From contig NZ_JAEDAK010000005.1 of the NCBI RefSeq assembly GCF_016093275.1, forward strand, positions 1 to 64,000: a DNA stretch of 64,000 nucleotides, given 5' to 3'. The notes beneath the pieces were generated by a model. It worked only from the letters and a program-made list of their open reading frames with translations. It searched no databases and was not told the origin of the DNA. The position numbers and the translations under genes were made by a program. This DNA comes from Inhella proteolytica (GTDB lineage: Bacteria; Pseudomonadota; Gammaproteobacteria; Burkholderiales; Burkholderiaceae_C). This document shows, piece after piece, positions 16,597 to 30,051 of this stretch; position 1 is the stretch's first letter; every line of letters begins with the position of its first letter.

Positions 16597-16655
16597 TACA
16601 GCTCCTCACAAAGAACGACTTGACATGAAATGTCAAGCCGCTATCGTGCGCCGAC

Positions 16656-17108
16656 ATGTTATGTCTGGAGAACACGGTGAGCCTGGCAACCCCTTTGATG
16701 GATGTGCTGAAGGGCCTGGACGGGCTGCTGAGCGAGCAGCTTGGCGGCCTGGCTGTGCAGCTGCAGCCGATTCCCGGCGCGGTGACGGTGCTGCAGGTCA
16801 GCATCGAAGGGCGCGAGGAGCTGCCGATCTTCCTCACCGGCTCCGAGCACCAGATCCTCTGCATCTGCTACCTCTGGGACGAAGCCCAGGTGCGGCCCGA
16901 GCGCCGCACCGAGCTGCTGGAGACCCTGCTGGACCTGAACCCGTCGGTGCCGCTGTCGGACTTCGGCCGCGTCGGTGAGCGCTATGTGCTGATCGGCGCG
17001 CTGCGCCGCGAGGCCGCGGTGCAGGACGTGGCCAAGGAGCTGGCCGTGCTGAGTGACAACGCACTCGACGCGCTGGATGCGCTGGCCGAGTTCCTGATCG
17101 AGGAGTGA
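16656..17108 (+). CDS. YjfI-like (DUF2170) protein; first gene of the PspA-flotillin operon
   Basis: 'DGLLSEQLGGLAV...ELPIFLTGSEHQILCICYLWDE' resembles the E. coli YjfI/DUF2170 family. Its stop overlaps the start of the PspA-like gene. Confidence 0.65.
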   Translation: MLCLENTVSLATPLMDVLKGLDGLLSEQLGGLAVQLQPIPGAVTVLQVSIEGREELPIFLTGSEHQILCICYLWDEAQVRPERRTELLETLLDLNPSVPLSDFGRVGERYVLIGALRREAAVQDVAKELAVLSDNALDALDALAEFLIEE

Positions 17109-17776
17109 CCATGCCCAACGCCATCCGCCACATGCTGACCAGCCTGCGCGCCAGCGTGCAGGAACTGGGCGAGACCCTGCTCGGCCCCGAGCTGGACGCG
17201 CAGCGCCTGCAGTCCGCCCAGGCCGATCTGCGCGACGCGCGCCAGCACCTGGAGACGCTGCTGACGCAGCAGCTGCGCCTGGGCCGCGAGCAGGAGCAGG
17301 GTGCGCAGGAAACGGCGCGCCTGGAAGATCTGGCCACCAAGGCCTTGGCCCAGGGGCGCGAGGACCTGGCCGAGGCGCTGGCCGACCGCATCCTGGCCCA
17401 GCAGGCCGATGCCCAGGCTCGCCTGCAGCAGCTGGAGCTGCTGGGCACCCAGGCCCAGCAGCTGCGCACGCAGATCCAGGCCGCCGAGGCGCGCCTGCGC
17501 GAGTTCGAGCGCGAGCTGCAGATGGCCGAGACGCGCGCCGCGGTGGCGCGCACCACCCGCACGGTGGCCGATCAGCTGGCCGACGGTGCGGCGCTGCGCC
17601 GCCTGCGCGAGCGCCGCCAGGCCGAGGCCGACCGCAGCGCCGCCGCCGCCCAGATGGCTGGCGAAGACGCGCTGGAGCGCCAGCTGGTGGAGGCCGGCCT
17701 GATGCCCGACCCCGCCACCGAGCCGCGCCGCCGCCTGCTCGAGCGCCTGCGCGCGCGCAGTCAGGACCTGCGCTGA
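17105..17776 (+). CDS. PspA/IM30 (Vipp1/ESCRT-III-like) family protein, YjfJ-type
   Basis: All-helical, coiled-coil pattern. 'MPNAIRHMLTSLRASVQELGETLLGPELDAQRLQSAQADLRDARQHLETLL' matches the PspA/IM30 N-terminus. No pspB/C/F nearby. Confidence 0.8.
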   Translation: MTMPNAIRHMLTSLRASVQELGETLLGPELDAQRLQSAQADLRDARQHLETLLTQQLRLGREQEQGAQETARLEDLATKALAQGREDLAEALADRILAQQADAQARLQQLELLGTQAQQLRTQIQAAEARLREFERELQMAETRAAVARTTRTVADQLADGAALRRLRERRQAEADRSAAAAQMAGEDALERQLVEAGLMPDPATEPRRRLLERLRARSQDLR

Positions 17777-18141
17777 TGGCCATCCGCAAACCCGCCCGCT
17801 GGAAAAGCACGGACGAGGCCTTGAAAGCCGTGCAGGTCGCCTTTGATGTCGAGCTCAGCGTGATGGACGCGGTGCGCACCGCGGCCTTTCTGAACGAGGT
17901 CTCGCCCTCGGACCAGATCCGCCGCCTGCTGCAGCTGCCCACGGCCGAGCGCCCCAAGCGCCCGCGCCTGACCGTCACCCTCGGAAGCGAGGATTACGCG
18001 CTGCTGGCCGAGCGCTATGGTCTGGACCCGGAGGACCGCCTCGCCATCAAGGAGCAGGTGACGGCCGAGCTGATCACCTTTGCCGAACAACACCCGGCGC
18101 TGCCGCGCAAGGCCGCGCTGCGCCAGAAGGGGAAGAGCTGA
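17776..18141 (+). CDS. Hypothetical small protein in the PspA-flotillin operon
   Basis: TGATG start/stop overlap on both sides (translational coupling). No recognisable motif. Confidence 0.5.
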   Translation: MAIRKPARWKSTDEALKAVQVAFDVELSVMDAVRTAAFLNEVSPSDQIRRLLQLPTAERPKRPRLTVTLGSEDYALLAERYGLDPEDRLAIKEQVTAELITFAEQHPALPRKAALRQKGKS

Positions 18142-18758
18142 TGGGATTCATCGACGCTGCGCTGAGCTACCCGACGGGTTTGCTGAGCGCCCTGCTGGCC
18201 GTGGTGCTGGTGTACTGGCTGCTGGCCCTGGTGGGCCTGGCGGACTTTGAAACCGATGGCCTGGAATGGCAGGCCGATGTGGACGCCGGCGAACTCAGCG
18301 GCGCGGCCGCGCTGCTGGTGGGCCTGGGCCTGGGTGGCGTGCCCTTCTCCATCGCCGCCAGCCTGGTGGTGCTGCTGGCCTGGACCTTCTGCTGCCTGGC
18401 CGCCATGTGGGTGCTGCCCACCGAGCCGGGGCTGCTGATGCAGATCGGCGCCGGCACCGGCGTGCTGCTGCTTGCGCTGGCCTGGGGCGTGCTGCTCACC
18501 AGCCGGCTCATCCGCCCGCTGCGCCCGCTCTTCAAGACGCACCAGGCCCAGCTGAACGCCGACCTGGTGGGCCAGCCCTGCACGGTGCTCACCGGCAGCG
18601 TGGACGAAAAGCTCGGCCAGGCCGAGATCAAGCAGGCGGGCGCCAGCCTGAACGTGCGCGTGTGGGCTGCCAGCCCGAACGATTTCAAGCGGGGCTCCAC
18701 CGCCCGCATCGCCGAATACGACGCGGCCCGCGGCCGCTATCGCATCGAACCCGTCTAA
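18141..18758 (+). CDS. YqiJ/NfeD-like membrane protein (OB-fold C-terminus)
   Basis: N-terminal TM helices plus C-terminal beta-rich 'GQPCTVLTGSVDEKLGQAEIKQAGASLNVRVWAA...RIAEYDAARGRYRIEPV', typical of NfeD/YqiJ partners of SPFH proteins. Confidence 0.65.
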   Translation: MGFIDAALSYPTGLLSALLAVVLVYWLLALVGLADFETDGLEWQADVDAGELSGAAALLVGLGLGGVPFSIAASLVVLLAWTFCCLAAMWVLPTEPGLLMQIGAGTGVLLLALAWGVLLTSRLIRPLRPLFKTHQAQLNADLVGQPCTVLTGSVDEKLGQAEIKQAGASLNVRVWAASPNDFKRGSTARIAEYDAARGRYRIEPV

Positions 18759-18786
18759 GAACCCCAATCACCCCCGGAGGAGAGCC

Positions 18787-20988
18787 ATGGAGCCCCTGAT
18801 CGTTGCTGTCGTCATCCTCGCCGTCCTGCTGCTCGGCATGGTGGCGCTGTTCGCCAAGTTCTATCTGAAGATCGACCAGGGCTATGCGCTGATCGTCAAC
18901 ACCCTGCGCGCCGAGCCCGAGGTCACCTTCACCGGGCGCATGGTCTACCCGATCATTCACCGCGCCGAGCTGATGGACATCTCGCTCAAGACCATCGAGA
19001 TCGACCGCAGCGGGAACGAGGGCCTGATCTGCAAGGACAACATCCGCGCCGACATCAAGGTCAAGTTCTTCGTGCGCGTGAACAAGACGGCCGACGACGT
19101 GCTCAAGGTCGCGCAGGCGATCGGCTGCGCGCGCGCCAGCAGCCAGGAAACCCTGGAAGAGCTGTTCTCCGCCAAGTTCTCCGAGGCCCTGAAGACGGCC
19201 GGCAAGGCGCTCGACTTCGTCGACCTCTACCAGGCGCGCGACCGCTTCCGCGACGAGATCCTGCGCCAGATCGGTGACGACCTGAGCGGCTACGTGCTCG
19301 AAGACGCCGCCATCGACTACCTGGAGCAGACGCCCATCCAGAAGCTCGACAGCAACAACATCCTCGACGCCCAGGGCATCAAGAAGATCACCGAGCTCAC
19401 CGCCGTGGAGCACGTGCGCACCAACGAGCTGCGCCGCAACGGCGAGATGCAGATCAAGAAGAAGGACGTCGAGACCCAGGAGACCATGCTGGAGCTGGAG
19501 CGCCAGGCCGCCGATGCCCAGGCCAAGCAGAGCCGCGAGATCGCCAGCGTGAAGGCGCGCGAGGAAGCCGAGACGCAGAAGATCCAGGCCGAGGAGCGCA
19601 CCAAGGCCGAACTGGCCCGCCTGCAGGCCGAACAGCAGCTCGCCGTGCAGCAGGAGAACGTGCTGCGCGAGAAAGAGGTGGCCGAGAACAACCGCAAGCG
19701 TGCGGTGGCCATCGAAGAAGAGAAGGTCACCCGCGCCCGCGAGCTGGAGGTGGTGGACCGCGAGAAGGAAGTGACCCTGCAGCGCATCGACAAGGACCGC
19801 GCGGTGGAGGTGCAGAAGAAGGCGATTGCCGACGTGGTGCGCGAGCGCATCGTGGTGGAGCGCACCGTGGCCGAGCAGGAAGAGGCCATCAAGGAACTGC
19901 GCACCGTGGCCGAGGCCGAGCGCAACAAGAAGGCCACCGTGGTGATGGCCGAAGGCCAGGCCGAAGAGAAGCTGCTGCTGGAGGTGAAGGCCGCCGAAGC
20001 GCAGGAGCGCCGCGCCCGCCACAAGGCCGCCGAGGAACTGACGCTCGCCGATGCCAAGCTGAAGGTGGCCGAGCGCGAAGCCGAGGCCAAGAAGCGCGAG
20101 GCCGAGGGCCTGGAGGCCATCACCGCCGCGCCCGGCTTTGCCCAGGCCAAGGTGGCCAAGGTGGGTGCCGAGGCCAAGCTGGCGCAGATGGAGGCCGAGG
20201 CCGCGGGCAAGCAGAAGATCGGTCTGTCGGAAGTGCAGGTGCGCACCGCCGAGGCCGAGGCCACGCTCAAGGCCGGCCAGGCCGAGGCGCAGGTGGTGCA
20301 GGCCAAGATGACGGCCGAAGCCGAGGGCAAGGGCAAGCTCGGCCTGGCCGAGGCGCAAGCCGTGCAGGCCAAGCTGCTCGCCGAGGCCGAGGGCAAGGAA
20401 AAGCTCGGCCTCGCCGACGTGCATGTGCGCGCCGCCGAATCGGACGCGCTGATCAAGGTGGGCGAAGCCGAGGCCCGCAACATCGAGCTGCGCTTCCAGG
20501 CCGAGGCCAAGGGCCTGCGCGAGAAGTTCGACGCCATGAAGGCCATGAGCCCGGACACCCGCCAGCACGAAGAGTTCCGCATGGCGCTGGAGAAGCAGCA
20601 CACCGAAACCATGAAGGGCATCGACGCCCAGACCTCGATCGCCCGCGAGCAGGCCGAGGTGCTGGGTGGCGCGCTCTCGAAGGCGAACATCGACATCGTC
20701 GGCGGCGAGGGCGACTATTTCGACCGCTTCGTGCGCGCGCTCTCCATCGGCAAGGGCATCGACGGCGTGATCCAGAACAGCCGCACCCTGCAGGTGGGCC
20801 TGAAGGACCACCTGACCGGCGAGCGCGATCTGGTGGGCGACTTGAAGGGCCTGGTGGGCGCGCTCGGCGGTGCGAGCGGCGAACTGCAGAACCTGACCGT
20901 GGCCAATCTGCTGGCCAAGGTGGCCAAGGATGGGACGGAGCCGCAGAAGGCCGCGCTGGCCACGCTGCTCAACGGCTTGAAGAACTGA
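18787..20988 (+). CDS. Flotillin-family (SPFH/band-7) protein, YqiK-like, with a long Ala/Glu/Lys-rich coiled-coil repeat region
   Basis: N-terminal TM helix. SPFH domain (GYALIVNTLRAEPEVTFTGRMVYPIIHRAELMDISLKTIEI...). About 350 aa of EA-repeat coiled coil. C-terminal flotillin tail. Confidence 0.85.
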   Translation: MEPLIVAVVILAVLLLGMVALFAKFYLKIDQGYALIVNTLRAEPEVTFTGRMVYPIIHRAELMDISLKTIEIDRSGNEGLICKDNIRADIKVKFFVRVNKTADDVLKVAQAIGCARASSQETLEELFSAKFSEALKTAGKALDFVDLYQARDRFRDEILRQIGDDLSGYVLEDAAIDYLEQTPIQKLDSNNILDAQGIKKITELTAVEHVRTNELRRNGEMQIKKKDVETQETMLELERQAADAQAKQSREIASVKAREEAETQKIQAEERTKAELARLQAEQQLAVQQENVLREKEVAENNRKRAVAIEEEKVTRARELEVVDREKEVTLQRIDKDRAVEVQKKAIADVVRERIVVERTVAEQEEAIKELRTVAEAERNKKATVVMAEGQAEEKLLLEVKAAEAQERRARHKAAEELTLADAKLKVAEREAEAKKREAEGLEAITAAPGFAQAKVAKVGAEAKLAQMEAEAAGKQKIGLSEVQVRTAEAEATLKAGQAEAQVVQAKMTAEAEGKGKLGLAEAQAVQAKLLAEAEGKEKLGLADVHVRAAESDALIKVGEAEARNIELRFQAEAKGLREKFDAMKAMSPDTRQHEEFRMALEKQHTETMKGIDAQTSIAREQAEVLGGALSKANIDIVGGEGDYFDRFVRALSIGKGIDGVIQNSRTLQVGLKDHLTGERDLVGDLKGLVGALGGASGELQNLTVANLLAKVAKDGTEPQKAALATLLNGLKN

Positions 20989-20997
20989 GGACCGGCC

Positions 20998-21540
20998 ATG
21001 TACACGCCCCTGATGAGCCCCTGCGCGCCGCAACAGACGCTGCAGCGCGGTGAGCTGGCGCCCGGCCTGCTGGCCTGGCTGTGCAAGGAATCCGGCGGCG
21101 CGCTGCTGGACCTGCAGGACTACCGCCGCTGGGCCGAGCAGGCCGTGGCCGTGCCGCTCACCGTCACGGCCGAGACCGCCTTGCACGACGGCCAGGGCGT
21201 GCGCCGCTGCCCCAACTGCACCCGCCTGATGCAGCGCCTGCGCTCGGGCACCGAGCAGGGCTTCCGCATCGACCGTTGCGCCGCCTGCCAGCTCGTCTGG
21301 CTGGACCGCGGCGAATGGGACGCCCTGGCCGCCGCCGGCCACGCGCTGCACCTGCAGGCCCTGCTCTCCGACGCCGGCCAGCGCCTGGCCCAGGAGGACG
21401 AGCTGCGCGAACGCCGCGAGGCCGAACTGGCCGAGCGGCTGGGGCTAGACACCCTGCGCGAGCTGCAGCGCATGCGCGTCTGGCTCGACGGCCGTTCCGA
21501 CCGCGATGAACTCTTGAACCTCCTCCGCAATGGCTGGTAG
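20998..21540 (+). CDS. Zinc-ribbon (CxxC...CxxC) domain protein
   Basis: 'CPNCTRLMQRL....RIDRCAACQLVWLDRGEWD' is a TFIIB-type zinc ribbon. Only 10 bp downstream of the flotillin stop. Confidence 0.55.
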   Translation: MYTPLMSPCAPQQTLQRGELAPGLLAWLCKESGGALLDLQDYRRWAEQAVAVPLTVTAETALHDGQGVRRCPNCTRLMQRLRSGTEQGFRIDRCAACQLVWLDRGEWDALAAAGHALHLQALLSDAGQRLAQEDELRERREAELAERLGLDTLRELQRMRVWLDGRSDRDELLNLLRNGW

Positions 21541-21684
21541 GACGTGACCCACCCCCGAAGCGCCTTTGGCGCTTCCCCCTCAAGGGGGCGCCACTGGCGG
21601 CCCGGCAAAGCCGGTTCCGCGGTGGCCCCTTGATCAATCTGGCGCTGCTGCTGTTGTCGCATTGAGTTGCCACCGGAATTCCAC

Positions 21685-24600
21685 ATGACCACCATGCCCG
21701 ATGCCGCCGACAGCGCCAGCTTCGAGCTGCTCAAAAAACGCCTCGCCACCCAAGGCGAGGCGCTGGCCGCGCAAACCTGCGCGCTGAACGACGCGCGCCT
21801 GCAGGCCTTCGGCCGCAGCGAGCTGGCCCTGCTGCTGCGCACCCGCGCCCGCACCGAGAACAACTGCCATGCGCGCGACCTCGTGCGCATTGGCGAGCAG
21901 CTGCTGTTCGGCTTCAACGTCTTCATCGGCCTGCGCAAGGAAACCTCGGTCGCCGATGTGTTCGCGCTCTATCGGCTGGGCGCGGGCGATGAGCTCGAAG
22001 CCCTGCCGCTGGCCGGCAGCTTCCTGGACGAAGCCCGCTTCACGCAGGACTTCCGCGAGCTCTACGCCTATTACAAGAACGCCACGCTGATCCAGCTGCG
22101 CGTCACCGCGGACAAGCTGCTCGCCGCCTTCCAGATCGGCCAGCAGCTGCACGACCTGCGCGTGTTCCGCTGGCAGATCGAGCGCGATGGCAGCCTGAAG
22201 TACATCGACAACCGCGGCGAGCGCGACATGCAGCTGCCGCCCACGCACGACTTCGAATGGACGCCCACCGCGCGCGAGCACCAGGTGGCCGGCCGCCACC
22301 CGCACGTCAACATCCTCGACACCGTGTTCGTCGAGACCACCGGCGGCGACCTCACCGTCAAGGTGGAGAACAACACCGAGAGCGGGCTGGGCATCTACAG
22401 CGAGCCGGTGGAAGACAGGAACCAGAGCCTGGCCGATGCCGAGATCGCCTACGCCCGGCTCGGCGCCTTGATCCTGCTGCGCATCAAGCCCTACCGCGAG
22501 ACGGTCACGCGCTACCTGGTGTTCAACACGCGCACCCGCGCGGTCGAGCGCATCGACGCCATCGGCTCTTCCTGCGTGCAGCTGCCCGAGGACCACGGCA
22601 TCCTCTTCCCCGGCGGCTGCTACCTGCAGAACGGCGAGACCAAGCGCTTCGACCTACCCGAGGCCATCACCGCCGGCCTGCGCTTCAAGCGCATGGTGCG
22701 CTCGCCCAATGGCGAGGACGTGCTGTTCGTCTTCTACGAACCGACAAGCGGGCATTACGCGCTCTTCACCTACAACCTCATCAACAAGGCCCTGGCCACG
22801 CCCCTGCTGGCCAACGGTTATGCACGCTTCCCCGATGGCCGCGTGCTCGTCTTCCTGACCGAAGGCGCCGAGCCCACGCGCGTGCACCCCATGCAGCTGT
22901 GGCAAACGCCCTTCTTCAGCGAAGAGCATGCGCTGGCGCAACCGAAGGCCGAGGGCTTCTTCGGCCGCATCGGCAACGCCGAGCTGGTGCGCGGCATTGC
23001 CGAGCTGAATGGCATCGCCCGCGCGCTGGCCGACCAGCCGCCCACCCGCACCGCCTACGAAGACCTGCTGCGCCAATGCGGCCGCGTCGTCGATGCCTAT
23101 TTCTGGCTGGATGAGACGGAAGCCGGCGGCCTGCTGCAGGCGCTCAAGGCCATCCAGGACGGCGCCCGCGCCACCCTCACCGAATTCGAGAAGGTCGAGG
23201 CCATCCGCCAGGACACCGCCAAGGCCTTTGCCCAGGCCGAAGGCCAGCAGCGCGAACTGCTCACGGTCATCGCCAGCACCCTGTGGAAGCAGCCGGACGA
23301 CTTCATCCAGGCGCTGGCGCGCCTGCGGGAACGCCGCGGCCAGCTGCAACTGCTGAAGGAGCTGCGCTACGCCGATCTGGCACGCGTGCAGGCCTGGGAC
23401 GAGGCCCTGGCCACCGAACAGCAGCGCGTGGGCGAAAAGGCCCTCGCCTTCCTGGCCGGCGACAAGGCCTTCGACAGCCAGCGCGCGGCGCTCACCAACC
23501 TGGCCGCCGAACTGCCCCAGGCCAGCACCACCACGCAGATCGCCGCCCTGCTCGCCACCCTGGACGAACAGGCTGCCGGCCTGGACCTGCTGACCGAGCA
23601 GCTCGGCAGCCTGCCGGGCGGCGACGCGGTGACGCGCACCCAGATCCTCGACCGCATCTCGGCCCTCTACGCCGACATCAACCGCCTGCGCGCCGAAGCG
23701 CGCCAGCGCCGCAAAAGCATGGGCGCGGCCGAGGCCACGGCCGAGTTTGGCGCCCAGTTCAAGCTGTTCGGCCAGGCGGTGGACAACGCGGTGTCCTTTG
23801 CCGACACGCCCGAGGCCTGCGACGAGGCCCTGACCCGGCTGCTGGCCCAGCTGGAAGAGCTGGAAGGCCGCTTTGCCGAGCACGACGAGTTCCTGCTCGA
23901 CATCACCACCAAGCGCGAGGCTGTGGTCGAGGCCTTTGCCGCGCGCCGCCAAACCCTGGTGGACGCGCGCCAGCGTCGCGCCCAGGCCATCACCGACGCG
24001 GCCGGTCGCATCCTCGACGGCCTGCCGCGCCGCCTGGCCAATCTGGCCGATCTGGCGGCCGTGCACAGCCTGTTCGCCGCCGACCCCCTGGTGGGCAAGC
24101 TGCGCAGCCTCATCAAGGACCTGCGCGACTTGGGCGCCGCCGTGGCCGCCGATGAGCTGGACACCCGCCTCAAGACCGCACGCGACAACGCCCTGCGCGT
24201 GGTGCGCGACCAGAAGGACCTGGCCAGCGACGGCGGCAAGGCGCTCAAGCTCGGCCGCCATGCCTTCAGCGTCAACCACCAGGCGCTGGAACTGACCCTG
24301 GTGCCGCGCAACGAAGCGCTGAGCTTCCACCTCACCGGCACCGACTATTTCGCCCCCGTGCAGGACGAGCGCCTGAACGCCCTGGCCCCCTACTGGCAGC
24401 AGGCCCTGGTGAGCGAAACCGCCGAGCTGAGCCGTGCCGAATACCTGGCCGGCTGCGTGCTGCAGGCCGCGCTGGCCGGTGAGGAAGGCGATGCCCTGCC
24501 GGAGCTCTTGGGGCACGCCCTCGCCGGCCCGGACGGCCACGCGGCCCTGCTCGAAGCCGTCCGCCGCTTCGCCGCCCCGCGCTACCAGGAGGGCTACCAG

Positions 24601-26754
24601 AAGGGCGTGCACGACGAAGACGCGGCGCGTCTGCTCGGCCCCCTGCTGGTGATGCAGGACAGCGCCGGCCTGCTCGCCTTCGAGCCCGCCGCCCGCGCCC
24701 TGGCCATGCGCTTCTGGGCCGGCGCGCTTGACGAGCCGGCCCAGGCCGCGCTGCAACGCCGCGCCCGCGCCGCCGCGCAGATGCGCGCCCTCTTCAAGGC
24801 CGCCGAGCCGCAAGCCCAGCTGGAAGCCGAGCTGGCCCCGCAGCTCGCCGCCTTCGCGCCCGACCAGGCCGAACACGCCCCCCGCGCCGCCGCCTACCTG
24901 GCGCGCCAGCTCGCTGCCGCACACCCCGCCTGGCCGCTGGCCAATGGCGCCGGCGAATTGGTGGACCAACTCTGGCGCGCGCTGGAGCGCAGCGGCCAGG
25001 CCGGCCCCTTGCGCCACGACCTGGAAGCCGCCAGCCCGACCGAGCGCTGGCAGCAGGCGCGGGCCTGGCTGCAGGCCTTCGCCCAGGCCCAGCACCCGCA
25101 GCTGCTGCAGTGGCTGGACGATGCCGCGAGCAGCCTGGCCATCCCCAAGCTGCCGCGCGAACGCCTGGGCGTGGAGCTGGAGCATGCGGTGAGCGGCCTG
25201 CTCAGCGAACACCCGCGCATTCAGCAAGGCCAGCTGCTGCTGAACCTGAACGAGTTCTGGCGCCGCTTTGCCCACCACCAAGCCGTGGTGCTGCCGGCCT
25301 TCCAGGCCTTGCAGGCGCGCCGGCTGGAACTCGTTCAACAGGAAAAGCAGCGCCTGCGCCTGGAGCAGTTCCAGGCCAAGCCGCTCTCCAGCTTCGTGCG
25401 CAACCGCCTGATCGACGAGGTCTACCTGCCCCTGGTGGGCGACAACCTGGCCAAGCAGCTCGGCACCGCCGGCGAAGGCGCCCGCACCGACCGCATGGGC
25501 CTGCTGCTGCTCATCTCGCCGCCCGGCTACGGCAAGACCACCTTGATGGAGTACCTGGCCGAACGCCTCGGCCTGATCTTCGTGCGCATCAACTGCCCGG
25601 CGCTCGGCCACGACATCACATCCGTCGACCCGAGTGCGGCCACGCACAGCGCCGCGCGCCAGGAGCTGGAAAAGCTCAACCTCGGCCTGGCCATGGGCAA
25701 CAACGTGATGCTGTACCTGGACGACATCCAGCACACCCACCCCGAGTTCCTGCAGAAGTTCATCGCCCTGGCCGACGGCACGCGCCGCATGGAAGGCGTG
25801 TGGAACGGCCAGCCGCGCTCGTACGACCTGCGCGGCAAACGCTTCGCCATCGTCATGGCCGGCAACCCGTATACCGAGAGCGGCGAGGTCTTCAAGATCC
25901 CCGACATGCTGGCCAACCGGGCCGACATCTACAACCTTGGCGACGTGCTGTCAGGCCGCGAGCAGCTGTTCGCGCTCAGCTACATCGAGAACGCGCTCAC
26001 CGCCAACCCGGCCCTGCAACCCCTGGCCAGCCGCGACCCCGCCGACGTGCACAAGTTGGTGCGCCTGGCGCAAGGCCAGGAGGTGCCCGCCACCGACTTC
26101 GCCCACCCCTACAGCGCGGCCGAACTGGACGAGCTGCGCGAGCTGATGCAGCGCCTCTTCAAGGCGCGCGACCTGCTGCTCAAGGTCAACCTCGCCTACA
26201 TCGAGAGCGCCGCCCAGGCCGACGCCTACCGCAGCGAGCCGCCCTTCAAGCTGCAGGGCAGCTACCGCAATATGGGCAAGCTGACGGCCAAGATCACCGC
26301 CCTGATGCGCGACGAGGAGCTGGATGCGCTGCTGCGCGACCACTACCGCGGCGAGGCCCAAACGCTCACCAGCGGGGCCGAAGAAAACCTGCTCAAGCTC
26401 GCCCACCTGCTCGGCTCCCCCACCGACGAGGAGCGCACGCGCTGGGCTGCCATCTGCGAGGAATACGTCAAGCGCCGCAAGCTAGGCGGCGCCGGGCAGG
26501 ACGGCCACACGCGCATCGCCGCGTCCTTGCTCGACGTGGCCGGCGCGGTCAAGGACCTGCACCTGAACCCGCCCATGACCGAGGGCATGAAGATGGCCGA
26601 GGCTCTGCTGCAGCTCTCCATCACCTACCGCAAGATCCTGATGCCCTTGGTCTCGGCGACCGAGAAGCGGCTGGAGCTGGATCAGTCGCTGCATGAGCAG
26701 GTGGAGCGGTTGGCGCGTGGGGTGGAGGGCGATCCTCTGGAGGATGGGGTCTGA
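21685..26754 (+). CDS. Giant (~1690 aa) uncharacterised protein with C-terminal AAA+ ATPase domain
   Basis: Single uninterrupted GC3-biased ORF. Beta-rich N-terminal ~450 aa. About 800 aa of Ala/Leu/Glu/Arg-rich helical region. AAA+ module near the C-terminus: Walker A 'ISPPGYGKTTLMEY', Walker B 'VMLYLDDIQ', sensor-1-like 'IVMAGNPYT', Arg 'DMLANRADIYNLG'. Confidence 0.8.
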   Translation: MTTMPDAADSASFELLKKRLATQGEALAAQTCALNDARLQAFGRSELALLLRTRARTENNCHARDLVRIGEQLLFGFNVFIGLRKETSVADVFALYRLGAGDELEALPLAGSFLDEARFTQDFRELYAYYKNATLIQLRVTADKLLAAFQIGQQLHDLRVFRWQIERDGSLKYIDNRGERDMQLPPTHDFEWTPTAREHQVAGRHPHVNILDTVFVETTGGDLTVKVENNTESGLGIYSEPVEDRNQSLADAEIAYARLGALILLRIKPYRETVTRYLVFNTRTRAVERIDAIGSSCVQLPEDHGILFPGGCYLQNGETKRFDLPEAITAGLRFKRMVRSPNGEDVLFVFYEPTSGHYALFTYNLINKALATPLLANGYARFPDGRVLVFLTEGAEPTRVHPMQLWQTPFFSEEHALAQPKAEGFFGRIGNAELVRGIAELNGIARALADQPPTRTAYEDLLRQCGRVVDAYFWLDETEAGGLLQALKAIQDGARATLTEFEKVEAIRQDTAKAFAQAEGQQRELLTVIASTLWKQPDDFIQALARLRERRGQLQLLKELRYADLARVQAWDEALATEQQRVGEKALAFLAGDKAFDSQRAALTNLAAELPQASTTTQIAALLATLDEQAAGLDLLTEQLGSLPGGDAVTRTQILDRISALYADINRLRAEARQRRKSMGAAEATAEFGAQFKLFGQAVDNAVSFADTPEACDEALTRLLAQLEELEGRFAEHDEFLLDITTKREAVVEAFAARRQTLVDARQRRAQAITDAAGRILDGLPRRLANLADLAAVHSLFAADPLVGKLRSLIKDLRDLGAAVAADELDTRLKTARDNALRVVRDQKDLASDGGKALKLGRHAFSVNHQALELTLVPRNEALSFHLTGTDYFAPVQDERLNALAPYWQQALVSETAELSRAEYLAGCVLQAALAGEEGDALPELLGHALAGPDGHAALLEAVRRFAAPRYQEGYQKGVHDEDAARLLGPLLVMQDSAGLLAFEPAARALAMRFWAGALDEPAQAALQRRARAAAQMRALFKAAEPQAQLEAELAPQLAAFAPDQAEHAPRAAAYLARQLAAAHPAWPLANGAGELVDQLWRALERSGQAGPLRHDLEAASPTERWQQARAWLQAFAQAQHPQLLQWLDDAASSLAIPKLPRERLGVELEHAVSGLLSEHPRIQQGQLLLNLNEFWRRFAHHQAVVLPAFQALQARRLELVQQEKQRLRLEQFQAKPLSSFVRNRLIDEVYLPLVGDNLAKQLGTAGEGARTDRMGLLLLISPPGYGKTTLMEYLAERLGLIFVRINCPALGHDITSVDPSAATHSAARQELEKLNLGLAMGNNVMLYLDDIQHTHPEFLQKFIALADGTRRMEGVWNGQPRSYDLRGKRFAIVMAGNPYTESGEVFKIPDMLANRADIYNLGDVLSGREQLFALSYIENALTANPALQPLASRDPADVHKLVRLAQGQEVPATDFAHPYSAAELDELRELMQRLFKARDLLLKVNLAYIESAAQADAYRSEPPFKLQGSYRNMGKLTAKITALMRDEELDALLRDHYRGEAQTLTSGAEENLLKLAHLLGSPTDEERTRWAAICEEYVKRRKLGGAGQDGHTRIAASLLDVAGAVKDLHLNPPMTEGMKMAEALLQLSITYRKILMPLVSATEKRLELDQSLHEQVERLARGVEGDPLEDGV

Positions 26755-27037
26755 GCCGATGGCAGAAGGCGCCCCCTGCGCTACAACGCGGAGCGTCATG
26801 CCCTCAACGAAAGGGCAGGCACCAGGGAGGAGCGAGAAGTGCCGGCTTCAAACATTGGACGGGTCATTGCCAAGGAGGCCCAGCAGCAGCAGCGGCGGCC
26901 TGCACCGCTGCTCAGTGCGGGCAGCGGGCCGAGCTGCAGCGGCGACTCGCGGCCCATGAAAGAGAGCCCACTCGAGTTGTGCCTTGGGAGGCGGTCCGCG
27001 TCGCACTGGGGCTTTCCACGACCGAGGCGGCTTCGCG

Positions 27038-27646
27038 ATGAGCCAAGCGCTGCAGCCCCTGATCCAGAGCCGCATCCTGACCCTGCGCGGCCAGCGGGTC
27101 CTGCTCGACGCCGACCTTGCTCAGCTCTACGGCGTCGAAACCCGGGCACTTGTGCAAGCCGTCAAGAGAAACCTTGCGCGCTTTCCCGAGGACTTCATGT
27201 TCACCCTCAGCGCCGAGGAGTTTGCCGACTTGAGATCACAGACTGTGATCTCAAGTGCCGCTCTTCCCGCTGTGCGCCATGGCGGTCGGCGCACCCCGCC
27301 TCTCGCCTTCACGGAGCAAGACGTCGCCATGTTGTCCTCGGTGCTGAACAGCCCGCGCGCGATCGCGGTCAACATCGAGATCATGCGCACCTTCGTGCGC
27401 GTACGTGCCTTGGCGGCCACCCATGCCGACCTGGCCCAGCGCCTGAGTGAACTGGAGGACAAGACGGCTTCGCTGGCGCTGGACCACGAACTGCTGGGGC
27501 GCAATACCCGGGCGCAGTTGAAGCAGGTGTTCGATACCTTGCGGCAATTGATGACGCCCGTGGAGCCCCCTACGCCGCCCAAGCGGCCTATCGGGTTCGT
27601 GCAACCCGACGAGTCGAATCGGGGCAAGGCCAAGGGGCGGCTATGA
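27038..27646 (+). CDS. ORF6N-domain (KilA-N-related, phage-associated) protein
   Basis: 'ILTLRGQRVLLDADLAQLYGVETRALVQAVKRNLARFPEDFMFTL' is the hallmark ORF6N motif. Real start at 27038; the track ORF adds an unsupported N-terminus. Confidence 0.75.
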   Translation: MSQALQPLIQSRILTLRGQRVLLDADLAQLYGVETRALVQAVKRNLARFPEDFMFTLSAEEFADLRSQTVISSAALPAVRHGGRRTPPLAFTEQDVAMLSSVLNSPRAIAVNIEIMRTFVRVRALAATHADLAQRLSELEDKTASLALDHELLGRNTRAQLKQVFDTLRQLMTPVEPPTPPKRPIGFVQPDESNRGKAKGRL

Positions 27647-27818
27647 GCGGGCGGCCGGGCCATGTGTCGGAACCCCTGCTGATTGAAGGCCTGCCCCCGG
27701 GTATCCGTGCCCCCGGTATGCGGCCTTTAGGACGCCTCTGGGACGCGCCTCGGGTTCTTGCATCTTTCATCGGTGAGTGCAAATTGAAAGACCCCGTCCC
27801 TGGTGCGCCCCGGGGGAA

Positions 27819-28298
27819 TTAATTTGAGACAACAATGAAAGCGCTCAACGAAGTCGCTATTGATTGTCTGTCCGCGTACGTCGCGCGAACTCGAAATACA
27901 CCAATACTATTGGCCTTCACAGAAACAGATACGGTAGAGAATCCGTCGGTTCCGATGGCAACGACTGACGGCGCTACTATGGCTCCGTGATCAATTGCTC
28001 CAAATGAATCCACAATATCCAGCATGACTTCGCCGCCAGGATTGGCCTTACGCACGTCGTCGAAATATACAGACCTCAGCCAAATTGGAACTGTTTCGCC
28101 TGCCCGAATCGTCCAAGACAAGTCTTGTCTCTGTGGCAATATGCAACACTTAGGAACTGTGCCAATTCCGACTAATACATATGTGCTATTGCGGTCTCGA
28201 ATTGGCTGAATTCGATTAGCCTGCAATGCGCAGCAGCCAACGAGCAAAAATAGAACGCCCACCGACAGTGCATGCTTGGTTCGTTGCAGGCCGCTCAT
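27819..28298 (-). CDS. Hypothetical lipoprotein/secreted protein in AT-rich islet
   Basis: Signal/lipobox-like 'LFLLVGCCALQA'. AT-rich codon usage unlike the host genome. Confidence 0.5.
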   Translation of the reverse strand: MSGLQRTKHALSVGVLFLLVGCCALQANRIQPIRDRNSTYVLVGIGTVPKCCILPQRQDLSWTIRAGETVPIWLRSVYFDDVRKANPGGEVMLDIVDSFGAIDHGAIVAPSVVAIGTDGFSTVSVSVKANSIGVFRVRATYADRQSIATSLSAFIVVSN

Positions 28299-28329
28299 GT
28301 CCCTAGCATTGCCTCATGGTGAGTGGCGT

Positions 28330-29778: not shown

Positions 29779-29895
29779 GCAGTTCTCCGGTTTAGTAATT
29801 CAACTCAGTTGAGGCCTATGTTTTGCTCAGTGTGCTAGTCGACTCTCGGCAACTGTTCACCGGGAAGATGGGCAGCACCATAGGGTTTGCGCTAA

Positions 29896-29913
29896 CTCCT
29901 CATTAATGAGGAG
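29896..29913. promoter_or_regulatory. Perfect 18-bp palindrome CTCCTCATTAATGAGGAG in divergent promoter region
   Basis: Self-reverse-complementary. Lies between the start of the AT-rich 482-aa gene (minus, 29778) and the NYN gene (plus, 30052). Confidence 0.5.
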
Positions 29914-30051
29914 GACGAAGGGCCATCTGCTCGCTTCGGGGCGTTGCCTTTCGCGGCTTCGGGGAAAGGCCTTAAATCGAACCCCTTCGAACCAAAGGCC
30001 CCAGTGGGCCTCCGTGCCCCGATTAATGCTTGCCAGCCCGAACGCCGTAGC

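What the first reader, a model, noticed from the sequence alone, without database searches (positions are those of the whole stretch)
16656..26754. Coupled PspA/IM30 - YjfI - NfeD/YqiJ - flotillin - Zn-ribbon operon followed by a giant AAA+ ATPase
Six genes (16656-21540) are packed with overlapping or 1-nt TGATG start/stop junctions. They are YjfI(DUF2170), a PspA/IM30 YjfJ-type protein, a 121-aa unknown, a YqiJ-like NfeD OB-fold membrane protein, a 733-aa flotillin with a long EA-rich coiled coil, and a CxxC zinc-ribbon protein. A 1690-aa AAA+ protein begins 145 bp later on the same strand.

In E. coli the yjfIJ and yqiJK pairs are separate loci. Here the two membrane-scaffolding systems (ESCRT-III-like PspA and SPFH/flotillin + NfeD) are fused into one transcription unit and juxtaposed to a huge ATPase. 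No pspBCF is present. This looks like a dedicated multi-component membrane-remodelling / envelope-stress or anti-phage module that, to my knowledge, has no experimentally defined function.
Basis: partly seen in the sequence, partly recalled or inferred. Interest (0 to 1): 0.8.

Follow-up and report, generated by a model that had tools for sequence, protein, structure and literature searches.

The report
PspA–flotillin–NfeD operon with giant ATPase
This is a real, tightly conserved seven-gene membrane-maintenance operon (a PspA scaffold with its chaperone, a small probable DNA-binding regulator, an NfeD/flotillin pair, a zinc-ribbon protein and a 1,689-residue AAA+ ATPase), but it is the Burkholderiales version of an operon type already described by comparative genomics and studied in Pseudomonas aeruginosa as the 'bac' cluster.

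Summary
All seven ORFs sit at the stated coordinates on one strand, and the first three junctions overlap (GTGA, TGATG, TGATG). DUF2170, PspA_IM30, Zn-ribbon and DUF3686+AAA pass Pfam. The flotillin call fails Pfam but is proved by homology to E. coli YqiK (SPFH region alone, E 1e-29). The NfeD call is proved by a predicted structure whose best PDB matches are YbbJ and YuaF.

The ATPase is not a chance neighbour. It lies downstream of the flotillin gene in 67 of 70 species-level loci. NfeD-flotillin-ATPase is the invariant core. DUF2170-PspA-121aa is an add-on (58 of 71 loci) and the Zn-ribbon gene is optional (38 of 70).

The arrangement is not new. Ravi et al. 2024 describe this operon class. 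P. aeruginosa bacABCDEF is a homologue with shown co-transcription and with biofilm and virulence phenotypes.

New here:
- The 121-aa "unknown" is probably a ribbon-helix-helix regulator.
- A 13-bp palindrome, GACAT-N3-ATGTC, overlaps the promoter. It occurs upstream of the operon in 58 of 60 loci that carry this gene and in 0 of 19 that lack it.

The mechanism, an ATP-driven flotillin/PspA scaffold, remains inference. There is no support for anti-phage defence or DNA repair.

The parts
16620..16647 (+). sigma-70-type promoter: -35 TTGACA (16620-16625), 16-nt spacer, -10 TATCGT (16642-16647)
   Evidence: 10 of 12 consensus match. A TTGACA lies upstream of g1 in nearly all related loci. There is no sigma-54 site.
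16622..16634 (.). Operator-like palindrome O1, GACATGAAATGTC, overlapping the -35 hexamer
   Evidence: It is one of only two matches in the 64-kb window, with 0 expected in 100 shuffles. The motif is conserved upstream of g1 in 58 of 60 loci.
16653..16665 (.). Operator-like palindrome O2, GACATGTTATGTC, at the predicted transcription start, 31 bp from O1
16656..17108 (+). g1: DUF2170 / YjfI / BacA-type protein with a CesT-like chaperone fold. The likely start is GTG 16677.
   Evidence: Pfam DUF2170, 5.6e-28. Matches PDB 8q8o (BacA) at 1.2e-5. BLASTP against E. coli YjfI gives 2e-7.
17105..17776 (+). g2: PspA/IM30-family protein (ESCRT-III-like scaffold)
   Evidence: Pfam PspA_IM30, 2.7e-17, covering positions 6-216 of 220. 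The ORF at the same position in relatives scores up to 1e-41.
17776..18141 (+). g3: 121-aa protein, a probable ribbon-helix-helix DNA-binding regulator and candidate autorepressor
   Evidence: It has no Pfam hit itself. Among 78 diverse relatives the recurrent weak hits are RHH families: NikA-like 9, FitA-like_RHH 4, RHH_1 4, RHH_10 3. It co-occurs perfectly with g1 (58 loci with both, 13 with neither) and with the palindrome.
18141..18758 (+). g4: YqiJ-like NfeD membrane protein, with membrane helices and a C-terminal OB-fold at aa 143-205
   Evidence: AlphaFold model. Foldseek top hits are YbbJ (8z5g) and YuaF (2k14). hhalign against YqiJ gives E 3e-4, prob 39%. It lies upstream of the flotillin gene in 80 of 80 loci.
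18787..20988 (+). g5: flotillin/YqiK-family SPFH protein, with an N-terminal TM, an SPFH domain (about aa 30-200) and a long EA-rich coiled coil
   Evidence: BLASTP against E. coli YqiK gives 8e-37; the N-terminal 205 aa alone give 1e-29. More than 8000 homologues, named flotillin/YqiK by sources.
20245..20417 (+). 66-bp tandem repeat (2.6 copies), equal to a 22-aa EA-rich unit inside g5
   Evidence: TRF score 220. This accounts for 733 aa here against 711 aa in close relatives.
20998..21540 (+). g6: double zinc-ribbon protein. The first ribbon is degenerate here; the second is intact at aa 70-112. It is an optional accessory.
   Evidence: Pfam Zn_ribbon_TFIIB, 4e-9. Family alignment. Present in 38 of 70 loci and absent in Inhella sp..
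21685..26754 (+). g7: 1,689-aa DUF3686-type AAA+ ATPase (the ORF is open from TTG 21667)
   Evidence: Pfam DUF3686 2.5e-192, DUF7902 9.9e-24, AAA_5 4.5e-7, AAA 6e-6. Present downstream in 67 of 70 loci. 100% identical to the I. proteolytica 'DNA repair ATPase'.
21763..23103 (+). g7 N-terminal DUF3686 domain (aa 33-479), described in the literature as beta-propeller repeats
   Evidence: The description is from Ravi et al. 2024. The fold was not tested here.
25504..25887 (+). g7 AAA+ core (aa 1280-1407): Walker A G1287-K1290-T1291, Walker B D1352-D1353, N1400
   Evidence: These residues are invariant in 16 homologues down to 46% identity. Pfam AAA_5 covers positions 2-127 of 139. The Foldseek top hit is NorQ.

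Best explanation
WHAT IT IS (well supported). This is a chromosomal operon of Inhella proteolytica. It belongs to the known class of PspA-flotillin-AAA+ membrane systems, whose studied representative is P. aeruginosa bacABCDEF. It is built from modules:
- An invariant core: a YqiJ-like NfeD membrane protein, a YqiK-type flotillin and a roughly 1,700-aa DUF3686 AAA+ ATPase.
- An add-on cassette: a DUF2170 chaperone-like protein, PspA and a small regulator.
- An optional double zinc-ribbon protein.

HOW IT MOST LIKELY WORKS (inferred).
1. The flotillin oligomerises on the cytoplasmic face of the inner membrane into an SPFH cage or dome, with the NfeD protein as its membrane partner. This is by analogy with QmcA-YbbJ, HflK/C and the human flotillin dome.
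2. That platform recruits the ESCRT-III-like PspA to stressed membrane, as SPFH protein YdjI does for PspA in B. subtilis.
3. The CesT-like DUF2170 protein binds PspA and keeps it from polymerising prematurely.
4. The giant ATPase uses ATP to assemble, remodel or recycle the scaffold. Its primary client is the flotillin/NfeD assembly, because it co-occurs with that pair even where PspA is absent.
5. The 121-aa protein is a ribbon-helix-helix repressor. It binds two GACAT-N3-ATGTC palindromes over the -35 element and the transcription start of a sigma-70 promoter, so the operon is autoregulated.
For: Identity of the parts.

Synteny in 80 species-representative loci retrieved with a flotillin profile:
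- NfeD gene present in 80 of 80.
- ATPase present in 67 of 70, on the same strand and immediately downstream.
- g1 and g3 present in 58 of 71, never one without the other.
- Ten fully assessable loci, including Myxococcota, carry only NfeD-flotillin-ATPase.

PspA confirmed at its slot in 7 of 10 loci where BLAST missed it.

P. aeruginosa-type contigs, found with published PA14 primers, carry:
- DUF2170 and PspA;
- NfeD (34-38% identity);
- flotillin (53-55%);
- ATPase (50-52% over about 1,700 aa);
- a PLD protein.
The 16190/16200 junction primers flank the 3' end of the ATPase gene, so BacE is the ATPase.

Literature:
- bacA-F are co-transcribed, and BacB-F rise 6- to 13-fold in a bacA mutant (PMC10948618).
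- PA14_16190 is described as an ATPase and is RsmA-controlled (PMC8855297).
- The operon class is described in PMC11237479.
- YdjI is required to bring PspA to the membrane (PMC8581546).

Regulation:
- The palindrome occurs twice in the window, both upstream of g1, with 0 expected.
- 86 of 88 exact sites in 1.48 Mb of related loci lie in the 230 bp upstream of g1.
- It is present in 58 of 60 loci with g1-g3 and in 0 of 19 without.
- RHH-type Pfam hits recur among g3 relatives.
- The promoter was found.
Against: - No experiment exists for this organism.
- Every mechanistic step (cage formation, PspA recruitment, the ATPase's client, g3 binding the operator) is inferred from homologues or from co-occurrence.
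- The flotillin does not reach any Pfam SPFH model.
- g3's RHH assignment rests on weak, scattered hits. hhalign against RelB and MetJ is not significant, and no internal repeat is detectable.
- I saw no canonical aromatic pore loop between Walker A and Walker B by eye, which argues against a simple Vps4-like unfoldase.
- The published P. aeruginosa phenotypes (biofilm, rhamnolipid, swarming) are indirect.
- The bacA::Tn proteome effect could be polar or a read-through artefact.
- The synteny sample is the 80 closest of more than 581 relatives, so the frequencies are not family-wide.
Confidence: 0.65

Rival explanations
1. The ATPase is a Vps4 analogue. Its client would be the ESCRT-III-like PspA polymer, which it disassembles, and flotillin/NfeD would be only a membrane anchor.
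For: PspA adopts the ESCRT-III fold and eukaryotic and archaeal ESCRT-III needs Vps4; Ravi et al. draw this analogy. The profile search aligns the stretch before Walker A with classical-clade AAA (Rpt3, Rix7, p97). The g3-family profile gives a borderline hit to the Vps4 MIT domain (E 0.022).
Against: Ten fully assessable loci, including all the Myxococcota ones, keep NfeD-flotillin-ATPase with no linked PspA, whereas only one assessable locus keeps PspA without the ATPase. I saw no aromatic pore-loop motif by eye. The best full-length Pfam model is AAA_5 and the Foldseek top hit is NorQ, not the classical clade. The MIT hit is not significant and conflicts with the prolines in the aligned segment.
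Confidence: 0.2
2. It is an anti-phage or abortive-infection defence module. A membrane sensor/effector (PspA, flotillin) would be coupled to a large NTPase, as in many defence systems.
For: The ATPase is giant with unknown domains. The operon lies next to a variable region: an ORF6N gene at 26984-27646 and a 50%-GC segment at 28-30 kb. Small toxin-antitoxin-like genes are inserted between the flotillin and ATPase genes in some relatives. PspA is historically 'phage shock' protein.
Against: PADLOC gives no meaningful hit for any of the seven proteins. The operon has the same G+C as its surroundings. Protein identities appear to fall with taxonomic distance from Inhella to Myxococcota, read from the locus list without a tree, which would suggest a vertically inherited housekeeping locus. 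A homologous operon in P. aeruginosa PAO1 and PA14 is stress- and RsmA-regulated.
Confidence: 0.06
3. The ATPase is a DNA-repair enzyme, as NCBI and Pfam name it, and is functionally unrelated to the membrane genes upstream.
For: The database name 'DNA repair ATPase' / 'ATPase involved in DNA repair' is attached to DUF3686 and to this protein.
Against: A full-text search for DUF3686 finds no paper. No nuclease, helicase or DNA-binding domain was detected. The gene is co-directional with and adjacent to NfeD/flotillin in 67 of 70 loci. It is co-transcribed with the membrane genes in P. aeruginosa.
Confidence: 0.03
4. The conserved palindrome is bound by an unlinked global regulator, or by the DUF2170 or PspA protein, and not by the 121-aa protein. 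That protein would then be a protein-protein adaptor.
For: Co-occurrence cannot separate g1, g2 and g3, since the three always travel together. g3-like domains also occur at the C-terminus of 390-580-aa proteins. In P. aeruginosa the negative regulator inferred from proteomics is BacA (DUF2170).
Against: RHH families are the only recurrent Pfam signal in the g3 family. DUF2170 has a CesT-like chaperone fold and PspA a coiled coil, and neither is a DNA-binding fold. P. aeruginosa-type loci lack g3 and lack this palindrome. Instead they have a 60-aa N-terminal extension on BacA and a different upstream repeat.
Confidence: 0.2

Closest known systems
Pseudomonas aeruginosa bacABCDEF (PA3732-PA3727 / PA14_16140-16200), the 'biofilm-associated cluster'
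   Same: Same order and strand: DUF2170 (BacA), PspA (BacB), NfeD-like TM protein (BacC), flotillin-like 76-kDa protein (BacD) and DUF3686 AAA+ ATPase (BacE). On P. aeruginosa-type contigs the flotillin is 53-55% and the ATPase 50-52% identical to the window proteins. Co-transcription has been shown experimentally.
   Different: P. aeruginosa-type loci have no 121-aa g3 and no Zn-ribbon gene. They end with a PLD (HKD) protein, BacF (PLDc_2, 5.9e-30), which is absent here. BacA is 206 aa with a 60-aa N-terminal extension. Their upstream repeats are TTACATGTGA-like, not GACAT-N3-ATGTC. A sigma-54 promoter has been proposed there, whereas the window has a sigma-70-like one. The DUF2170 proteins are only about 30% identical.
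CesT/Tir-PspA + band-7/flotillin + YqiJ/YuaF + AAA+ operon class (Ravi et al., mSystems 2024)
   Same: The described component list matches the window gene for gene, including the note that abbreviated operons without PspA are more widespread.
   Different: In the sections I read, that paper does not mention the 121-aa protein, the palindromic operator or the Zn-ribbon gene for this group. It gives no frequencies.
E. coli yqiJ-yqiK and yjfI-yjfJ
   Same: g5 is homologous to YqiK (E 8e-37). g4 resembles YqiJ (hhalign E 3e-4, same length, order and topology). g1 is homologous to YjfI (E 2e-7). g2 is a PspA-family protein like YjfJ.
   Different: In E. coli the two pairs are 1.2 Mb apart. yjfIJ sits in a polyamine-related operon (yjfKLMC). 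Neither pair has an adjacent AAA+ ATPase. g2 against YjfJ is only marginal (E 0.004).
Bacillus subtilis pspA-ydjGHI
   Same: A PspA gene is hard-wired to an SPFH protein, membrane partners and a zinc-ribbon protein. The SPFH protein is required to bring PspA to the membrane.
   Different: The partners differ: YdjH has a TPM domain and YdjI is a soluble SPFH protein. There is no NfeD, DUF2170 or AAA+ ATPase.
SPFH-NfeD cages (E. coli QmcA-YbbJ, PDB 8z5g; HflK/C-FtsH; human flotillin dome)
   Same: The g4 model's best structural match is YbbJ in the QmcA-YbbJ complex. An SPFH gene is preceded by an NfeD gene. HflK/C provides a precedent for an SPFH cage working with an AAA+ machine.
   Different: FtsH is a membrane-anchored classical AAA+ protease enclosed by the cage. 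The ATPase here appears soluble (no TM segment noted, not tested), is four times larger, has no protease domain and has a DUF3686 N-terminus.
ESCRT-III / Vps4
   Same: A polymerising ESCRT-III-fold protein is genetically coupled to an AAA+ ATPase.
   Different: The ATPase is not Vps4-like in architecture. It tracks flotillin rather than PspA.

Membership tests
PspA/IM30 (g2) | Match to the family profile above the curated threshold over the whole length | tested here: met
   PF04012: 63.6 bits against a cutoff of 33.9, covering positions 6-216 of 220.
PspA/IM30 (g2) | ESCRT-III-like helical hairpin fold, oligomeric rings or rods, and membrane binding | not tested
Oligomerisation cannot be tested with these tools.
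Classical Psp system (pspFABC) | PspB, PspC and the sigma-54 activator PspF are present, with a sigma-54 promoter | tested here: not met
   tblastn with E. coli PspB/C/D/F finds nothing at E<0.01 in the window. There is no TGGCAC-N5-TTGC site upstream of g1.
DUF2170 / YjfI / BacA (g1) | Profile match, and similarity to the solved BacA structure sequence | tested here: met
   PF09938, 97.9 bits. PDB 8q8o at 1.2e-5. YjfI at 2e-7. The NCBIfam BacA equivalog gives only 41.9 bits against a cutoff of 300, so g1 is not an ortholog-level match.
SPFH / flotillin, YqiK type (g5) | N-terminal membrane anchor followed by an SPFH (band-7) domain homologous to a bona fide flotillin | tested here: met
   31% identity over 205 aa to E. 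coli YqiK residues 9-210, E 1e-29.
SPFH / flotillin, YqiK type (g5) | Match to Pfam Band_7 / Flotillin models | tested here: not met
   No family at E<=10. Only 1 of 120 close homologues carries a precomputed PF01145 hit. The PDB profile search is empty.
SPFH / flotillin, YqiK type (g5) | Long C-terminal EA-rich coiled coil ('flotillin domain') | tested here: met
   The sequence shows it directly. A 22-aa EA-rich tandem unit is present. The YqiK alignment continues to residue 436.
NfeD / YqiJ (g4) | Membrane helices plus a C-terminal OB-fold NfeD domain | tested here: met
   The AF2 model has helices at 12-30, 49-61, 69-90 and 98-132 and five strands at 146-204. Foldseek matches are YbbJ 8z5g (E 1.6e-4), YuaF 2k14 (TMt 0.67) and 1510-C 3wwv (TMt 0.71).
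NfeD / YqiJ (g4) | Sequence-profile match to NfeD or YqiJ models | tested here: inconclusive
   No Pfam hit for the window protein. In 22 relatives, YqiJ_N hits 2 (E 0.35) and NfeD hits 1 (E 0.023). hhalign against YqiJ gives prob 39%, E 3e-4. One homologue is named DUF1449 by UniRef.
NfeD / YqiJ (g4) | Encoded immediately upstream of its SPFH partner | tested here: met
   80 of 80 loci, the same arrangement as yqiJ-yqiK.
AAA+ ATPase (g7) | Walker A, Walker B and sensor-1 motifs, and a profile match | tested here: met
   GYGKTT at 1287-1292, DD at 1352-1353 and N1400 are invariant in 16 homologues. AAA_5 scores 30.4 bits against 22, and AAA 27.2 against 21.2.
AAA+ ATPase (g7) | Assignment to a clade (classical/Vps4-like versus MoxR/dynein-like) | tested here: inconclusive
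P. aeruginosa bac operon | Homologues of BacA-E in the same order | tested here: met
P. aeruginosa bac operon | Terminal PLD protein BacF, the 206-aa BacA with its N-terminal extension, and the proposed sigma-54 promoter | tested here: not met
   No PLD follows g7; the next gene is an ORF6N gene. g1 is 143-150 aa. There is no sigma-54 site.
Ribbon-helix-helix regulators (g3) | Profile or fold match to RHH families | tested here: inconclusive
   Among 78 relatives: NikA-like 9 (best 7.7e-6), FitA-like_RHH 4, RHH_1 4, RHH_10 3, SeqA_N 3. The window protein itself has no hit. hhalign against RelB gives prob 8%.
Ribbon-helix-helix regulators (g3) | A cognate palindromic operator at its own promoter | tested here: met
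   Binding itself is not testable here.
Known anti-phage defence systems | Match to any PADLOC model | tested here: not met
   Only coiled-coil and P-loop noise at E>=9e-4.

The most novel reading that the evidence does not exclude
The DUF3686 giant ATPase may be a dedicated ATP-driven assembly or disassembly machine for bacterial flotillin/NfeD cages. That would be the first energy-consuming remodeller of an SPFH scaffold other than a caged protease. PspA and its chaperone would plug into it as an optional repair module. In the Burkholderiales/Lysobacterales branch the whole unit would be switched by a previously unrecognised RHH autorepressor acting on GACAT-N3-ATGTC operators.
Probability: 0.25. 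Interest if true: 0.7.

Novelty: new member of a known kind. Interest (0 to 1): 0.4.

Why it matters
How SPFH/flotillin scaffolds and PspA polymers are assembled, positioned and recycled in bacteria is still open, and bacterial PspA has no established Vps4 counterpart.

This operon class links a flotillin/NfeD pair to a very large, structurally uncharacterised AAA+ ATPase, and often adds PspA. It is therefore a natural place to look for an energy source for membrane-scaffold dynamics. It is present in P. aeruginosa, where it affects biofilm formation and virulence.

The window does not reveal a new system. This analysis does sharpen the hypotheses:
- The ATPase tracks flotillin, not PspA.
- The widespread database name 'DNA repair ATPase' has no supporting evidence.
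- The non-Pseudomonas branch has a simple, testable regulatory circuit of a small regulator and a 13-bp palindrome. That circuit could be used to find the inducing signal.

Tried and rejected
- **Library scans.** Pfam, NCBIfam and PADLOC gave nothing for g3, g4 and g5, even at E<=10.
- **PDB sequence and profile searches.**
  - g5 and its family profile: empty.
  - g4 and its profile: nothing meaningful.
  - g3 profile: only noise, plus a borderline Vps4-MIT hit that I regard as spurious.
  - g7: only the Walker A stretch matched.
- **g3 tests.**
  - No internal repeat between its halves.
  - Not significant against E. coli RelB or MetJ.
  - No similarity to the N-terminal extension of Pseudomonas BacA.
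- **Concatenated g3+g4 query.** It was meant to recover homologues of both proteins in one search but returned only g4 relatives.
- **Sigma-54 promoter.** Tested as in P. aeruginosa and rejected.
- **Intrinsic terminators.** None found on the + strand inside the operon or after g7 with the simple scan.
- **Literature.** A search for 'DUF3686' returned no papers.
- **Chance adjacency of the ATPase.** Rejected by the synteny counts.

Full report
**1. Observation**

The window has about 70% G+C. Its giant ORF is 100% identical to the 'DNA repair ATPase' of Inhella proteolytica, a member of the Burkholderiales.

The junctions are as follows:
- g1/g2: a 4-nt overlap (GTGA).
- g2/g3 and g3/g4: TGATG.
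- g4/g5: a 28-nt gap with a strong Shine-Dalgarno.
- g5/g6: a 9-nt gap.
- g6/g7: 144 nt to the ATG at 21685.

So "tightly packed" is right for the first four genes, and the rest are merely close. No intrinsic terminator was seen on the + strand within the unit.

**2. Domain calls**

Four of the calls pass curated Pfam thresholds:
- g1: DUF2170, 5.6e-28.
- g2: PspA_IM30, 2.7e-17.
- g6: Zn_ribbon_TFIIB, 4e-9.
- g7: DUF3686 2.5e-192, DUF7902 9.9e-24 and AAA_5/AAA.

I tested them in other ways.

*Flotillin (g5).* I fetched E. coli yqiJK and yjfIJ.
- g5 aligns with YqiK at 28% identity over 451 residues (E 8e-37).
- The membrane anchor plus SPFH part alone gives 31% identity and E 1e-29, so the score does not come from the low-complexity coiled coil.

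*NfeD (g4).*
- BLAST against YqiJ finds nothing.
- A family profile aligns colinearly with YqiJ (hhalign E 3e-4, probability 39%).
- An AlphaFold model built on 17 homologues (pLDDT 76) shows membrane helices followed by a five-stranded barrel.
- Its two best PDB matches are NfeD proteins: YbbJ in the QmcA-YbbJ SPFH-NfeD complex, and the YuaF soluble domain. The archaeal 1510-C domain also matches.

Both calls are therefore right, and profile libraries alone would have "refuted" them wrongly.

*Other comparisons.*
- g1 matches the crystal-structure sequence of P. aeruginosa BacA (8q8o, 1.2e-5) and E. coli YjfI (2e-7).
- g2 against YjfJ is only marginal.
- No PspB, PspC or PspF homologue is detectable in the window.

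**3. Is the ATPase a real partner?**

A scan of one genome per GTDB species with a flotillin profile returned more than 581 relatives. The best 80 loci were kept. They span Burkholderiales, Rhodocyclales, Lysobacterales, Thiotrichales-like MAGs and Myxococcota.

Mapping the seven window proteins onto them gave these counts:

| Gene | Position | Present / assessable |
|---|---|---|
| NfeD (g4) | directly upstream of flotillin | 80 / 80 |
| ATPase (g7) | downstream, same strand | 67 / 70 |
| g1 and g3 | upstream cassette | 58 / 71 (never one without the other) |
| Zn ribbon (g6) | between g5 and g7 | 38 / 70 |

Where BLAST missed the fast-evolving PspA, the ORF in its slot is PspA_IM30 in 7 of 10 cases.

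Among the 66 fully assessable loci:
- 33 have the full seven-gene form.
- 19 lack only the Zn ribbon.
- 10 have only NfeD-flotillin-ATPase.

The closest relative, Inhella sp. (95% identical flotillin), goes straight from flotillin to ATPase with a 4-nt gap. Other lineages have unrelated small genes inserted at that junction.

The unit is therefore modular, and the ATPase tracks the flotillin pair rather than PspA. One caveat applies: these are the 80 nearest relatives, not the whole family.

**4. What is already known**

Ravi et al. (mSystems 2024, PMC11237479) describe "CesT/Tir-PspA" dyads combined with three components:
[quoted passage not shown] - a YqiJ/YuaF protein.

They note that a PLD hydrolase is sometimes added, and that abbreviated PspA-less forms are more widespread.

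For the P. aeruginosa 'bac' cluster, published work shows the following:
- The cluster was defined in 2008 as PA3732-PA3729.
- It was extended in 2024 to six co-transcribed genes, bacA-F (PMC10948618).
- bacA and bacB mutants are defective in biofilm, rhamnolipid production, swarming and virulence.
- BacB-F accumulate 6- to 13-fold in a bacA mutant.
- Other papers call PA3728/PA14_16190 an "ATPase (involved in DNA repair)" and place it in the RsmA regulon.

To test the homology directly, I scanned metagenome contigs with a published PA14 primer.
- Several contigs carry two or three of the published primers.
- They encode DUF2170, PspA, an NfeD-like protein (34-38% identical to g4), a flotillin (53-55%) and an ATPase of about 1,746 aa (50-52% over the full length), in that order.
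- The PA14_16190/16200 junction primers flank the 3' end of the ATPase gene.
- The next ORF is a 230-aa PLD-like protein (PLDc_2, 5.9e-30).

So BacE is the DUF3686 ATPase and BacF is the PLD. The window operon is a homologue of bacABCDE. It differs by having g3 and g6 and lacking the PLD.

**5. New detail: a regulator and its operator**

The 59-bp region upstream of g1 holds a sigma-70-like promoter: TTGACA, 16 nt, TATCGT. It has no sigma-54 site.

Two copies of the palindrome GACAT-N3-ATGTC lie there, at 16622-16634 (over the -35) and 16653-16665 (at the predicted start).
- They are the only two copies in the 64 kb, with none expected by chance.
- In the related loci the palindrome is present upstream of g1 in 58 of 60 cases, or 60 of 60 allowing one mismatch. 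It is usually present in two copies 15, 24 or 28-29 bp apart.
- It is present in 0 of 19 loci that lack g1-g3.
- Of 88 exact sites in 1.48 Mb of related loci, 86 fall in the 230 bp upstream of g1.

The 121-aa g3 is the obvious candidate binder.
- Its family is small: 131 cluster representatives among 1.84 billion proteins.
- Across 78 diverse members, the only recurrent Pfam signals are ribbon-helix-helix families: NikA-like 9 (best 7.7e-6), FitA-like_RHH 4, RHH_1 4, RHH_10 3, SeqA_N 3.
- Direct hhalign tests against RelB and MetJ, and an internal-repeat test, were not significant. I could not obtain a structure.

I rate "RHH autorepressor" as probable, not shown.

P. aeruginosa-type loci lack g3 and lack this palindrome. 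Instead BacA carries a conserved 60-aa N-terminal extension, and two TTACATGTGA-like repeats lie about 25 bp apart upstream. That would fit the published negative effect of BacA on the operon.

**6. The ATPase**

- Walker A (GYGKTT, 1287-1292), Walker B (DD, 1352-1353) and N1400 are invariant down to 46% identity.
- Pfam AAA_5 covers the whole core, whereas the classical AAA model covers only its first half.
- A model of residues 840-1695 (pLDDT 70) has a confident all-helical middle domain with no structural match and a moderately confident AAA+ core.
- Foldseek ranks NorQ (MoxR family) first at E 2.8e-3, followed by FtsH, Cdc48, ClpX and RuvB.
- hhalign is inconclusive.
- No solved structure is related beyond the P-loop.

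The clade, and therefore the mode of action (threading versus MoxR-like remodelling), stays open. The name 'DNA repair ATPase' has no support from domains, context or literature.

**7. Mechanism and verdict**

The best-supported reading is a membrane-scaffold system, in which:
- an NfeD/flotillin assembly on the inner membrane is served by a giant AAA+ ATPase;
- a chaperone-guarded PspA module is recruited to it, as shown for the SPFH protein YdjI and PspA in B. subtilis;
- the whole unit is autoregulated by a small repressor.

Composition and linkage are shown. Cage formation, recruitment, the ATPase's client and repressor binding are inferred.

Defence, DNA repair and chance adjacency are poorly supported. 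A Vps4-like role directed at PspA is a live but less likely variant.

The finding is real and biologically interesting. It is a new member of a described operon class rather than a new kind of system.

Noticed in passing
L093:902-1531, L094:2840-3478, L107 and L109 (P. aeruginosa-type contigs): In these loci the BacA reading frame is about 206 aa. A conserved N-terminal extension (MESKSSAHYQRLYRQRLREQGLVKKEVWILPEH...) precedes the DUF2170 domain. Two TTACATGTGA-like palindromes lie about 25 bp apart just upstream. The solved BacA structure (8q8o) is a 146-aa chain. The extension may be the DNA-binding part behind BacA's reported negative control of the bac operon.
   Followed up: partly
L091, reverse strand, ORF after the ATPase gene (L091:3271-3963): The gene after the ATPase in the P. 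aeruginosa-type locus, at the position of bacF, encodes a 230-aa PLD/HKD protein (PLDc_2, 5.9e-30). The bac papers call it hypothetical. The window operon has no such gene.
   Followed up: yes
window 20245-20417: A 66-bp tandem repeat (2.6 copies) inside the flotillin gene encodes a 22-aa EA-rich unit. Close relatives are 711 aa against 733 aa here, so the coiled-coil length varies by whole repeat units.
   Followed up: partly
window 20998-21540 (g6) and alignment A9: The g6 family has two zinc-ribbon modules. In the window copy the first has lost two of its cysteines (CKESGG instead of CxxCxG). In Massilia/Duganella-type copies it is the second that has decayed. Each lineage keeps at least one intact ribbon.
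   Followed up: partly
L049:12275-12809, L051:12202-12702: In some Lysobacterales the flotillin-ATPase junction holds unrelated small genes. One pair looks like a toxin-antitoxin pair by sequence pattern only (not profile-tested). Another is a small helical protein. The junction seems to tolerate insertions.
   Followed up: no
window 26984-29778: Directly after the operon come an ORF6N-domain gene (26984-27646, 1e-30) and a segment of only 50% G+C (28001-30000). That segment has two minus-strand ORFs (159 and 482 aa, the latter with a signal-peptide-like start) and no Pfam match. It is probably foreign DNA. The Inhella sp. relative also has ORF6N and antitoxin-like genes there.
   Followed up: partly
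P0333, P0348, P0352 (relatives of g3): A g3-like domain forms the C-terminus of 390-580-aa proteins. These share a conserved N-terminal domain (DVIADFWKP...INTYQFG...LVSDSNEH) joined by a long low-complexity linker. None has a Pfam hit at E<=0.01. From memory the N-terminal part resembles the DUF4178-type proteins of other PspA operons; this was not tested.
   Followed up: partly
g3 family profile A8 against the PDB: There is a borderline match (E 0.022, 18 bits) of the C-terminal half of the g3 family to the MIT domain of Vps4, the domain that binds ESCRT-III tails. It is probably chance, because the aligned segment contains the conserved PxRPR motif. It is worth noting because PspA is ESCRT-III-like.
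   Followed up: no
window 17105-17776: The Inhella PspA scores much lower against PF04012 (64 bits) than PspAs at the same position in other genera (109-140 bits for six of the seven confirmed; one scores 48). E. coli PspA does not find it by tblastn. It is an unusually divergent, Q/A/R-rich copy.
   Followed up: no
window 21685-26754: NCBI and UniRef name this protein and its relatives 'DNA repair ATPase', apparently inherited from the Pfam DUF3686 description. Nothing in its domains, its neighbours or the searchable literature supports a DNA-repair role.
   Followed up: yes
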